Shown one piece after another: positions 3,001 to 6,000 of a stretch of DNA of 64,000 nucleotides. The position numbers are program-made. Within the stretch, counting starts at the first letter, position 1; each line of letters opens with the position of its first letter. The DNA lies in NCBI RefSeq assembly GCF_988242995.1, contig NZ_OZ547043.1; one strand, written 5' to 3'.

Positions 3001-6000
3001 CAAAAAATTAACAATTTCTCACAACATAACTATATAAATTTGTTGTTAGTTTTAACGATTAAGATTGCAAAAGCAACAGATAGAACGGTGTTTGCTCATC
3101 AAGCGAACATAATTAATACAGACTTGTTTTGCGTGATAAAAAAACAGATATTCTCACACTCTTAATTATTTAGCAGGTTATCTGAACGTAAAACATTATT
3201 ATTTCATGGATAATAAAGCAGGAAATAATTCCCCATTAATAAGACAGAATAATGTAAATGAAGCCGGATGATATTAACGATCATCCGGCTTTATTGATTT
3301 ACGAAACTAACATCCCAGTAAACACATACGCCTGCAACAGCGTGATAATGCCGATAACGCTGGCAAAAATCAGACTGTGCTTCACGGTGTAGCGGAACAG
3401 TTCAGATTCCCGGCCCACCATGCCCGTCGCGGCGCAGGCCACGGCGATAGATTGCGGGGAGATCATCTTGCCAGTTACGCCGCCGCTGGTGTTTGCTGCC
3501 ACCAGCAGAGTGTCAGAGACGTTGATTTGCTGCGCCGTGGTCGATTGCAGTGAACCAAACAGGGCGTTAGAGGAGGTGTCCGAGCCGGTAAGGAATACGC
3601 CCAGCCAGCCGAGGAATGGCGAAAAGAACGGGAACATCACGCCTGTACCTGCCAGTACCAGCGCCAGCGTGGTGGACATACCGGAATAGTTGGTGACGAA
3701 GGCGAACGCCAGCACCATGCCAATCGACAATATCGGCCACTTCAGACTAATTAGCGTTTCGGCAAAGACGCCAATCCCTTTCTTGATGCCCACGCCGAGG
3801 ATGAAGATAGAGATAATCGCCGCAATAAAAATAGCGGTGCCGCCAGCCGAGAGAGGGTCGAATTTAAACACCGCATCCATTGGCGTTGGTTCGGCGACAA
3901 TGGGTGCCGCTTTCAACACTTGTTGATGCAAATGAGGGATCTGGAAATTAATCACCAGTGAATAAAACGCGCCGCCCGGAGCAAATAACGCTTTAAACGG
4001 CTTCATGGTCCAGATGGTGACCAGCACCGTTAAGATTAAAAACGGTGACCACGCACGAATGATTTGCCCCAGACTATATTCTGAAGGCACGGGACCGCCA
4101 GAAGATGGTTTATTCACCACCATCGCACCTGCGGATTGTCCCATGCTGATTGCCGTTTCGGTATTTTTCGGCCGCCAGACTTTAAGGAATAAAGCGAGGG
4201 AGACGATACTCACCAGCGCCGAAGTAATATCCGGCAGTTCCGGACCAATATAGTTAGAGGTAAAGAACTGCGTGACAGCGAAGCTTCCCCCAGCAACCAG
4301 CGCCGCTGGCCACGTCTCTTTCACCCCTTTCCAGCCGTCCATCATTGCTACCAGCCAGAACGGCACAAGAACCGACAGGAACGGTAACTGACGTCCCGCC
4401 ATTGCGCCAATGTGGAACGGATCGATTCCCGTTACCTGACCGGCGACCAGAATCGGCACGCCCAACGCACCAAACGCCACCGGCGCAGTATTGGCAATCA
4501 GACACAGCCCCGCCGCGTATAACGGTTTGAAGCCCAGGCCCACCAGCAGCGCACCGGTAATCGCCACCGGCGCACCAAAGCCAGCCGCCCCTTCCAGCAG
4601 CGCGCCAAAGGAGAAACCAATCAGTAACACCTGCAAACGCTGATCGTCAGTGATGGAGATAACCGAGCTGCGGATAATATCGAACTGGCCGCTGGCAACG
4701 GTTAATTTATACAGGAATACCGCCGCGACAATAATCCACGCAATAGGCCATAAACCATAAATAAAGCCATAGCCCGCAGCAGCAAATGCCATATCAATCG
4801 GCATTTTAAAGGCGAATATCGCAATCAGAATAGATAATATAAGGGTTATTGCTCCGGCGACATGTCCTTTCAGACGTAATACCGCGAGTGCAACGAAGAA
4901 GAATATTATCGGGATCAGGGCGACCAGAGCGGATAGCCCCAGTCCTCCCATCGGCATATACATTTGGGTCCAGGTAACCATATTGTTCAGTCTCTTATTA
5001 TCTTTATATGCTTGATATACTTAAGGTTGTAATAAGCAAAAGAGGACTGAACTGTAAAATATAGGCGTTATACTTTACAGCAACAGTACGCCGCTAACGC
5101 AATTGCTACCTCTGGCATAACAAGTATATCGGGTAAGGGTTTCTGTTCCGCACACGCAGGCGCAGAGTATCGTTAAGATATCCATATTGTTGTTTTAGGC
5201 CCGCTAGTAATGCGCTACGGGTATTTAATATTGTTAAACCCTGATAATCGCTCCGGTTATTTCCGGGATAAATGTACTACCGCAGTTACTATCATAGCCC
5301 CGACAATAAAACTTGCCGGGGCTTTTTTGACGCTATTAATGACTTTCTTTTTCGCGTAAACGCCAGGCGTGTAATAACGGTTCGGTATAGCCGTTTGGCT
5401 GTTTCACGCCGAGGAAGATTAAATCGCTGGCAGCTTTAAAAGCACACGAGTTAGCGAAATTCCCCGCCATCGGACGATAAGCCGGATCGCCAGCGTTTTG
5501 CTGATCAACCACTTTCGCCATATTCTCCAGCGACGCCTGCACCTGTTCTTTGGTCAGAATACCGTGACGTAACCAGTTGGCGATATGCTGGCTGGAGATA
5601 CGCAACGTTGCACGGTCTTCCATCAGCGCCACATTGTGAATATCCGGCACTTTTGAACAACCAATCCCCTGCTCCACCCAGCGCACCACGTAACCCAGAA
5701 TCCCCTGTACGTTGTTATCCAGCTCTTGTTGGATCTCTTGTGCCGACCAGTTAGCGTTTTCAGCCACCGGAATAGTCAGCAGATCGTCCAGCAGCGGTTC
5801 AAATTCAGCATTGAACTCGGTCTGGGCAATGTTGGCTTGCACGCTCTGTACGTTGGTTTGATGGTAGTGCAGCGCATGGAGCGTAGCAGCGGTTGGTGAC
5901 GGAACCCAGGCCGTGTTCGCCCCGGCACGTAACTGATCGCCCTTCTGGCTGTACATGTCCGCCATCAGGTCCGGCATTGCCCACATGCCTTTACCAATTT

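What the first reader, a model, noticed from the sequence alone, without database searches (positions are those of the whole stretch)
5298..5329. Terminator-like hairpin with T6 on the strand opposite to the glc operon
In the glcB-glcA spacer a GC stem is followed by TTTTTT on the plus strand, although both flanking genes are on the minus strand. On the minus strand the hairpin is preceded, not followed, by the homopolymer. It could terminate an antisense transcript or act as an intra-operon RNA element.
Basis: seen in the sequence. Interest (0 to 1): 0.2.

Follow-up and report, generated by a model that had tools for sequence, protein, structure and literature searches.

The report
Two-faced hairpin just after glcB
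A conserved GC-rich hairpin right after the E. coli malate synthase gene glcB marks the published 3' end of the glcB message on one strand, and on the other strand looks like the ordinary terminator of the already catalogued antisense RNA C0719. It is real but ordinary.

Summary
A 7-bp GC stem (A5296-G5302 / C5317-T5323), extended by 3 inner pairs, is followed by T6 (5323-5328) on the + strand, 7 nt beyond the stop codon of minus-strand glcB. Only 5 such sites occur in the window, against 0.11 expected from shuffles.

The window is E. coli (K-12 coordinate = window + 3116298). On the + strand, the Rfam family C0719 (RF00117, a candidate sRNA antisense to the glc operon) matches 5060-5281. It ends 15 nt before the hairpin, so the hairpin plus T6 is most simply its unannotated intrinsic terminator. 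However, the published tables I could search list no + strand 3' end or start site here.

On the minus strand, two independent published data sets place a strong 3' end of glcB transcripts 4-7 nt past the stem (window 5289-5296), although no U-run follows it.

The hairpin and the 5-7-nt run are conserved in E. albertii, an unnamed lineage and Raoultella. One stem pair varies G.U / G-C / U.G, which always pairs in glc-sense RNA but not in antisense RNA.

Best reading: one stem-loop serves both strands. It forms or protects the glcDEFGB mRNA 3' end and terminates antisense transcription. This is an ordinary, largely catalogued feature of low interest.

The parts
5296..5323 (.). Stem-loop that can form in RNA of either strand. 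Arms 5296-5306 and 5313-5323, loop 5307-5312.
   Evidence: Sequence. Folds: + strand -16.2 kcal/mol with an A.C mismatch; minus strand -21.9 kcal/mol with 11 continuous pairs. Conserved in E. albertii, the L084/L094 lineage and Raoultella. Single copy per E. coli genome.
5323..5328 (+). T6 run directly 3' of the stem on the + strand (A6 run 5' of the stem on the glc-sense strand). This is the U-tract of a + strand intrinsic terminator.
   Evidence: The run is 5-7 nt in every lineage: E. coli 6 or 7, E. albertii 5, L084/L094 7, Raoultella 5. The terminator discriminant is positive on the + strand only.
5289..5296 (-). Published 3' ends of glcB-containing transcripts. Adams 2021 Term-seq: K-12 3121590 = window 5292. 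TRS 2023: peak 3121587-3121594 = window 5289-5296.
   Evidence: PMC7815308 Supplementary file 1, LB OD 2.0 sheet, classed as 'primary' for glcB. PMC10687069 Supplementary Data 2, signal 0.947 and 1.0, classed as 'Alternative primary in TU' for glcB. Coordinate offset.
5336..7507 (-). glcB (malate synthase G). Its stop codon TAA is at 5338-5336, 7 nt before the A-run.
   Evidence: ORF list. RefSeq annotation of near-identical E. coli DNA. Pfam malate synthase domains on homologues.
4982..5335 (-). 354-nt untranslated glcB-glcA spacer. A spacer of 331-398 nt is kept in all relatives.
5060..5281 (+). Match to Rfam C0719 (RF00117), a candidate sRNA antisense to the glc operon. Its annotated 3' end lies 15 nt before the hairpin.
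   Evidence: cmscan 296.8 bits, E = 7e-79, full length. Published coordinates 3119380-3119601 + in U00096.2. Absent from the current NC_000913.3 feature table.
3299..4981 (-). glcA (glycolate permease), the distal gene of glcDEFGBA.

Best explanation
A single conserved stem-loop 7 nt after the glcB stop codon works on both strands, by two different known mechanisms.

(a) In the glc mRNA (minus strand) it is a very stable hairpin with no U-tract. It defines the steady-state 3' end of glcDEFGB transcripts. RNA that continues into, or is cut within, the 354-nt untranslated spacer is trimmed back by 3'-5' exonucleases to the foot of the stem. Alternatively, some polymerases stop there inefficiently. 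Either way, glcDEFGB mRNA accumulates independently of the distal permease gene glcA.

(b) In + strand RNA the same stem followed by U6 is a canonical factor-independent terminator. It ends antisense transcription coming out of the spacer (the catalogued C0719 RNA, which would then be about 270 nt rather than 222 nt) before it runs into glcB.

Shown: the structure, its non-randomness, its conservation and the minus-strand 3' ends. Inferred: the exonuclease-barrier mechanism, the effect on the glcB:glcA ratio, and actual termination on the + strand.
For: Structure and non-randomness.

Minus-strand 3' ends in two independent published data sets:
- Adams 2021: 3121590(-), 47630 reads, LB OD 2.0, 'primary' for glcB.
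- TRS 2023: 3121587-3121594(-), signal 0.947 and 1.0.
The end lies 4-7 nt past a stem with no U-run. This is the signature Dar & Sorek 2018 describe for protective 3' stem-loops (abstract).

Sense-strand selection:
- Stem pair 8 is G.U in E. coli, G-C in E. albertii and Raoultella, and U.G in L084/L094. It always pairs in sense RNA but is an A.C mismatch in antisense RNA in 2 of 4 lineages.
- The sense hairpin is the more stable one in 6 of 9 variants and about equal in 2.

+ strand terminator:
- 7-bp G-C-rich stem base plus U5-U7 in every lineage.
- Discriminant d = +2 to +10 on the + strand against -19 to -33 on the minus strand (formula recalled from d'Aubenton-Carafa 1990).
- The stem base plus run is identical across four lineages at 16 of 19 columns, against 42% for the whole spacer. 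This holds even in Raoultella, whose spacer is only 53% identical.
- C0719 matches immediately upstream on the + strand, and also in E. albertii and L084.

Contrast: the window's other such hairpins at 42829-42870 and 50937-50978 carry runs on both sides. This one carries a run only on the antisense side, in all lineages.
Against: - No + strand 3' end at K-12 31216xx in the Adams or TRS tables.
- No start site in the spacer in the held Cappable-seq or SMRT-Cappable-seq supplements. I did not verify that the full TSS tables are among the held files.
- No sigma-70-like promoter for C0719.
- C0719 has very low read counts and is no longer in the NC_000913.3 feature table.
- The minus-strand mechanism is not resolved. 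No clearly C-rich, G-poor rut-like stretch follows the hairpin. The Adams Rho table was made at OD 0.5, when glc is off, so it says nothing.
- One E. albertii strain carries changes that favour the antisense hairpin, and one E. coli strain has lost the 3' arm and the run.
Confidence: 0.55

Rival explanations
1. Sense strand only. The hairpin is purely the 3'-end-forming or stabilising stem-loop of glcDEFGB mRNA. C0719 is not a real discrete RNA (an array artefact or pervasive antisense noise), and the A-run is conserved for a sense-strand reason or by descent.
For: All mapped 3' ends are on the minus strand. No + strand 3' end, start site or promoter was found. C0719 was dropped from the NC_000913.3 features. 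Wobble-type changes in the spacer helices mostly fit the sense strand, with 6 G.U-type events against 1-2 A.C-type events. Consensus folds are more stable in sense: -81.0 against -70.9 kcal/mol.
Against: This leaves unexplained why a run of >=5 A directly 5' of the stem is kept in all four lineages while the bases between the stop codon and the run diverge. No lineage has acquired a U-run on the sense side. The strand test rests on few events and is not significant (about p = 0.06-0.15, my binomial estimate).
Confidence: 0.25
2. Antisense strand only. The element is simply the intrinsic terminator of C0719. The minus-strand 3' ends are incidental decay intermediates that pile up at any stable hairpin.
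For: Canonical terminator anatomy exists on the + strand only. C0719 is adjacent. The T-run is conserved. Three E. albertii L083 changes all preserve antisense pairing.
Against: The minus-strand end is strong (TRS signal 0.95-1.0) and reproducible across laboratories and methods. Stem pair 8 tolerates G.U and U.G, which pair only in sense RNA. There is no direct + strand evidence at all.
Confidence: 0.12
3. Classical bidirectional intrinsic terminator, with hairpin plus U-tract termination in both directions.
For: A palindromic stem usable on both strands, and 3' ends on the minus strand.
Against: The minus-strand tail is UAUGAUAGU in E. coli and ACUGCAGAU in Raoultella, so there is no U-run in any lineage. 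The discriminant is strongly negative. True two-sided examples in the same window look different.
Confidence: 0.04
4. Not an RNA element: a chance palindrome, a REP-type repeat, or a protein-binding inverted repeat in DNA.
For: It is a DNA palindrome, and an IS5-family element has inserted next to it in one strain.
Against: 0.11 such sites are expected by chance in the window. It is single copy per genome. It is conserved with wobble-compatible changes. RNA 3' ends map at its foot.
Confidence: 0.02

Closest known systems
Rho-independent (intrinsic) transcription terminator
   Same: On the + strand there is a G-C-rich stem (7 bp at the base, about -13 to -15 kcal/mol) immediately followed by U6. 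It lies 15 nt after the annotated end of a catalogued RNA (C0719).
   Different: It points against both neighbouring genes. No + strand 3' end has been reported in the tables searched. The loop region is long unless the three inner pairs form across an A.C mismatch.
U-tract-less protective 3' stem-loops at the ends of Rho-dependent or processed transcripts (Dar & Sorek 2018, PMC6061677)
   Same: On the minus strand there is a very stable stem-loop (-20 to -22 kcal/mol) with no U-rich tail. A precise steady-state 3' end lies a few nt downstream, and a long untranslated stretch follows.
   Different: Rho dependence, a rut site and exonuclease trimming have not been shown here. The element lies inside an operon (glcDEFGB|A), not at its end.
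Bidirectional terminators between convergent transcription units (Ju et al. 2019, cited from memory; examples in this window at 42829-42870 and 50937-50978)
   Same: One palindromic hairpin is used by convergent transcripts (glcB sense and C0719 antisense).
   Different: Only one side carries the homopolymer run, so the two directions cannot use the same mechanism.
C0719 RNA (Rfam RF00117; Tjaden et al. 2002, cited from memory)
   Same: Same locus and strand as the T-run. The hairpin is the natural candidate for its terminator.
   Different: The hairpin lies outside the 222-nt Rfam model, which ends at 5281. The family has no known function and weak expression evidence. Structure conservation in the spacer leans towards the opposite strand.
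Intercistronic mRNA stabiliser hairpins that set unequal expression within operons (e.g. the REP stem-loops of malE-malF; established knowledge)
   Same: A stable stem-loop directly after an upstream cistron, with a mapped 3' end at its foot and a less abundant distal gene expected.
   Different: It is not a REP sequence and is single copy. An effect on the glcB:glcA ratio has not been measured.

Membership tests
Intrinsic terminator (+ strand) | G-C-rich stem-loop of about 5-14 bp | tested here: met
   7 bp (6 G-C) plus 3 inner pairs; -13.1 to -14.7 kcal/mol for the hairpin alone.
Intrinsic terminator (+ strand) | U-rich tract immediately 3' of the stem | tested here: met
   T6 at 5323-5328. 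The run is 5-7 T in all lineages. Discriminant d = +2 to +10.
Intrinsic terminator (+ strand) | RNA 3' ends within the U-tract in vivo or in vitro | tested here: not met
   No entry at K-12 31216xx on the + strand in the Adams 2021 tables (three conditions) or the TRS 2023 tables. One TRS file was truncated and C0719 is weakly expressed, so absence is weak evidence. Raw reads were not available.
Intrinsic terminator (minus strand, for glcB) | U-rich tract 3' of the stem | tested here: not met
   The tail is UAUGAUAGUAAC; d = -19 to -33. No U-run in any lineage.
Protective 3' stem-loop of Rho-dependent or processed transcripts | Stable stem-loop without a U tail, with a precise steady-state 3' end just downstream | tested here: met
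   -20.1 to -21.9 kcal/mol. 3' ends at window 5292 and 5289-5296 on the minus strand.
Protective 3' stem-loop of Rho-dependent or processed transcripts | Downstream rut site or bicyclomycin-sensitive termination | tested here: inconclusive
   The C/G ratio reaches only 1.1-1.6 in 78-nt windows of the spacer. There is no glc entry in the Adams Rho table, which was made when glc is not expressed.
Protective 3' stem-loop of Rho-dependent or processed transcripts | 3' end depends on PNPase or RNase II trimming | not testable with these tools
   Needs 3'-end mapping in pnp and rnb mutants.
Bidirectional intrinsic terminator | A-run 5' and T-run 3' of one hairpin, so both strands read stem plus U-tract | tested here: not met
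   A run exists on one side only. Compare the two-sided sites.
C0719 RNA (RF00117) | Match to the covariance model above the gathering score | tested here: not met
   The model match is 5060-5281 (296.8 bits). The hairpin at 5296-5328 lies outside it, so it is adjacent to the family rather than a member of it.
REP / repetitive extragenic palindrome | Many dispersed copies per genome sharing a consensus | tested here: not met
   The 71-nt query finds a median of 1 place per genome, maximum 2.

The most novel reading that the evidence does not exclude
The conserved 354-nt glcB-glcA spacer may not be the gene of an antisense sRNA at all. It may instead be a structured RNA of the glc mRNA strand: a glcB 3' UTR / glcA leader, possibly with a short conserved upstream ORF starting at 5185. 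The hairpin would be its upstream gate, setting how much transcript reaches glcA. On this reading Rfam C0719 is annotated on the wrong strand. The conserved T-run merely insulates glcB from stray antisense transcription.
Probability: 0.25. Interest if true: 0.35.

Novelty: already known. Interest (0 to 1): 0.15.

Why it matters
It explains an apparent oddity, a terminator pointing the 'wrong' way inside an operon, with known parts. These are a catalogued antisense RNA locus on one strand and a catalogued glcB mRNA 3' end on the other.

The practical value is modest:
- It suggests that the annotated C0719 3' boundary (and perhaps its strand) should be revisited.
- glcDEFGB and glcA are probably uncoupled at this hairpin.
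- Sequence-only terminator calls can miss hairpins without a U-tract that nevertheless define mRNA ends.

Tried and rejected
- The built-in promoter/terminator scan did not list the site because its loop limit is 8. I replaced it with my own scan plus shuffles.
It returned only Pseudomonas, Burkholderiales and Bacillales loci (L003-L082) and no enterics, so it was useless for this question.
- A metagenome scan with a non-E. coli variant of the glcA leader found nothing.
- A second GlcB protein search from Raoultella found no further enteric lineages.
- The TERMITe 2025 supplements had no glc entries. No Dar & Sorek 2018 supplements are held.
- Nunez 2001, Thomason 2015, Ju 2019 and Tjaden 2002 are not in the library. 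The operon northern data, dRNA-seq start sites, SEnd-seq ends and the original C0719 evidence could therefore not be read.
- The Cappable-seq and SMRT-Cappable-seq supplements gave no hits in the spacer.
- Ten E. coli spacers gave only 17 variable columns, too few for a strand test.
- Rejected readings: REP or repeat (single copy); chance palindrome; coding function of the + strand ORFs through the hairpin (49 and 55 aa, no support).

Full report
**Observation**

The + strand reads A5296-GCCCCG-A-CAA-TAAAAC-TTG-C-CGGGGC-T5323, followed by TTTTT and G5329. The structure has these parts:
- An outer stem of 7 bp (6 G-C).
- An A5303.C5316 mismatch.
- Three further pairs.
- A 6-nt loop.
- A T6 run at 5323-5328.

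As RNA, the + strand folds at -16.2 kcal/mol (z = -3.6). The minus strand folds at -21.9 kcal/mol (z = -5.2), because the mismatch becomes a G.U pair and 11 pairs stack without interruption.

I ran my own scan for perfect stems of >=7 bp with >=5 G-C, loop 3-14, followed by >=5 T. It finds 5 sites in the 64-kb window, against 0.11 +/- 0.34 in 100 dinucleotide-preserving shuffles. The site is therefore far from a chance event. The built-in scan missed it only because of its loop limit.

The flanking ORFs are both on the minus strand: 5336-7507 and 3299-4981. They are annotated glcB and glcA in near-identical E. coli genomes.

**Where the window comes from**

The 354-nt spacer matches 4543 of 5426 complete E. 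coli genomes at 95-100% identity, once per genome. In K-12 MG1655, glcA is 3119597-3121279 and glcB is 3121634-3123805, both on the minus strand. The conversion is therefore K-12 coordinate = window coordinate + 3116298, with the same strand sense. The hairpin region is identical in K-12 and the window.

**The + strand**

Rfam finds the candidate sRNA C0719 (RF00117) at 5060-5281 on the + strand, full length, 296.8 bits. This agrees with the published coordinates 3119380-3119601 (+) in the older genome version. The annotated end, which came from array probes (my recollection of Tjaden 2002; the paper is not held), lies 15 nt before the hairpin. The hairpin plus U6 is thus the obvious unannotated terminator of that RNA, which would then be about 270 nt long.

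A terminator discriminant of the d'Aubenton-Carafa type (formula from memory) is positive on the + strand (+2 to +10). It is strongly negative on the minus strand (-19 to -33).

Direct support for a + strand transcript is thin:
- The current MG1655 feature table no longer lists C0719.
- Its read counts are very low, rising in transition and stationary phase.
- Overexpression gave no biofilm phenotype.
- No sigma-70-like promoter precedes it.
- No start site in the spacer appears in the held Cappable-seq or SMRT-Cappable-seq supplements.
- No + strand 3' end at 31216xx appears in the Adams 2021 or TRS 2023 tables.

The only phenotype I found is a transposon insertion 'C0719' that lowers group II intron retrohoming.

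**The minus strand**

Adams et al. 2021 list a curated Term-seq 3' end at 3121590 (-). It has 47630 reads, comes from the LB OD 2.0 sheet, and is classed as 'primary' for glcB and antisense to C0719. The printed sequence matches the window. That position is window 5292, the A of GGGGCUAUGA, 4 nt past the stem.

The TRS study independently reports a minus-strand terminus peak at 3121587-3121594 (window 5289-5296). Its signal is 0.947 and 1.0 in two data sets, and it is classed as 'Alternative primary in TU' for glcB.

3' ends do therefore map here, but on the glc strand, where no U-run follows the stem. A stable stem-loop without a U tail and with a precise 3' end just downstream is the signature Dar & Sorek 2018 describe. 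They report it for transcripts whose ends are protected from PNPase and RNase II after Rho-dependent termination.

Whether Rho, an endonuclease cut in the 354-nt untranslated spacer, or weak termination supplies the substrate is not settled. The spacer has no clearly C-rich, G-poor stretch. The published Rho map was made when the glc operon is off.

**Comparative evidence**

GlcB of the enteric type turns up only in four lineages:
- E. coli.
- E. albertii.
- An unnamed lineage at 89% identity.
- Raoultella planticola at 81% identity.

The next relatives are Pseudomonas, at about 69%. All four lineages keep a long glcB-glcA spacer of 331-398 nt.

The hairpin sits just after glcB in each. The homopolymer is always on the same side: A5-A7 before the stem in glc-sense RNA, which is T5-T7 after it on the antisense strand. 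There is never a U-run on the sense side.

Across one representative per lineage, 16 of 19 columns of stem base plus run are identical, against 42% for the spacer as a whole. The bases between the stop codon and the run diverge, and the Raoultella spacer is only 53% identical overall. This argues that the run itself is constrained, which makes sense only for the antisense terminator reading.

Conversely, stem pair 8 is G.U in E. coli, G-C in E. albertii and Raoultella, and U.G in the L084/L094 lineage. It always pairs in sense RNA but is an A.C mismatch in antisense RNA in two of four lineages.

Other variation points both ways:
- One E. coli strain closes that mismatch (C5316T).
- Many strains have T7 instead of T6.
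- One strain has deleted the 3' arm and the run.
- One E. albertii strain carries three changes that all favour the antisense hairpin.

Taken together, both strands appear to matter. The stem fits the sense RNA slightly better, and the run serves the antisense RNA.

**Wider spacer**

C0719 is recognisable in E. albertii (272.7 bits) and in the L084 lineage (103.2 bits), but not in Raoultella.

Consensus folding is more stable in the glc-sense orientation:
- -59.4 against -43.0 kcal/mol.
- -66.6 against -55.7 kcal/mol.
- -81.0 against -70.9 kcal/mol with 14 sequences.

In helices that are palindromic at the DNA level, I count 6 lineage-level changes that are G.U in sense (A.C in antisense), against 1-2 of the opposite kind. 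This is suggestive but not significant. It keeps open the reading that the conserved RNA is the sense-strand spacer and not C0719.

**Comparison with known kinds**

- + strand: meets the sequence definition of an intrinsic terminator, but lacks in vivo 3' ends in the tables I could search.
- Minus strand: fails the U-tract criterion. It fits the protective 3' stem-loop class, with Rho and exonuclease dependence untested.
- Bidirectional terminator: it is not a classical one. The window's true two-sided examples at 42829-42870 and 50937-50978 have runs on both sides.
- REP: it is not one, being single copy.
- C0719: the hairpin lies outside the covariance model.

**Verdict**

The feature is real, conserved and almost certainly functional, but it is built from ordinary parts. 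Both of its faces already appear in public catalogues: C0719 in Rfam and EcoCyc, and the glcB 3' end in two 3'-end atlases.

My best reading (0.55) is a dual-use stem-loop. It acts as the mRNA 3'-end former or protector for glcDEFGB on the sense strand, and as an intrinsic terminator for antisense (C0719) transcription on the other. A sense-only reading (0.25) and an antisense-only reading (0.12) remain possible. Interest is low.

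Noticed in passing
window 5075-5185 (minus strand): There is a 36-codon ORF (MDILTILCACVCGTE...) on the glc-sense strand inside the spacer. Its ATG and first ~8 codons are conserved in E. albertii, the L084/L094 lineage and Raoultella (only 12 codons there). The frame is not kept further on, and there is no clear Shine-Dalgarno sequence. It could be a short leader ORF or just a conserved RNA block.
   Followed up: partly
window 5050-5335, both strands: Predicted structure of the C0719 region is better conserved in the orientation of the glc mRNA than in the annotated C0719 orientation. Alifold gives -81.0 against -70.9 kcal/mol. L084 changes in the CCGG...CCGG helix are G.U in sense and A.C in antisense.
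   Followed up: partly
L001 (E. coli PEC408) 2874-4047: An IS5-like ISKpn26 transposase gene lies within about 200 nt of the hairpin, on the glcA side. The glcA side is replaced, and type II Zorya defence genes (zorA2, zorB2, zorE) lie nearby. Only the last 47 nt of the spacer, including the hairpin, remain.
   Followed up: no
L093 (E. coli AST217) about 2540-2550: A natural 13-nt deletion removes the 3' arm of the hairpin and the T-run, while glcB and glcA stay intact.
   Followed up: no
window 5323-5328: The run is polymorphic in E. coli. 1889 of 4539 genomes fall in the 95-99% identity band for a 71-nt query, and the sampled members of that band carry T7 instead of T6.
   Followed up: partly
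L083 (E. albertii CP117620.1) 5526-5789: glcA is reduced to an 87-aa lactate-permease fragment in this E. albertii genome, while the spacer, hairpin and C0719 match are intact.
   Followed up: no
window 42829-42870 and 50937-50978: There are two classical two-sided terminators (A-run, G-C hairpin, T-run) at gene ends. They are a useful contrast to the one-sided glcB hairpin.
   Followed up: partly
window 13735-13767 (+): Another strong hairpin plus T7 on the + strand (TCCGGAAAC...GTTTCCGGA TTTTTTT), in the region downstream of glcC and next to a minus-strand ORF. I did not examine it further.
   Followed up: no
window 48572-48635 (+): Rfam match to ES173 sRNA (RF02753), 92.3 bits, just above its gathering score of 90.
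   Followed up: no
literature, C0719 locus: Yao et al. 2013 (PMC3636086) report that a mariner insertion at C0719 lowers group II intron retrohoming, with top-strand synthesis at 17% of wild type. This is the only phenotype I found for the locus. It could equally reflect polarity on glcA or loss of the spacer RNA.
   Followed up: no
GlcB homologues: The enteric glcDEFGBA-type GlcB has a very patchy distribution: E. coli, E. albertii, one unnamed lineage at 89% and Raoultella planticola at 81%. There is then a gap to Pseudomonas at about 69%. 883 of 5426 complete E. coli genomes lack the spacer altogether.
   Followed up: no
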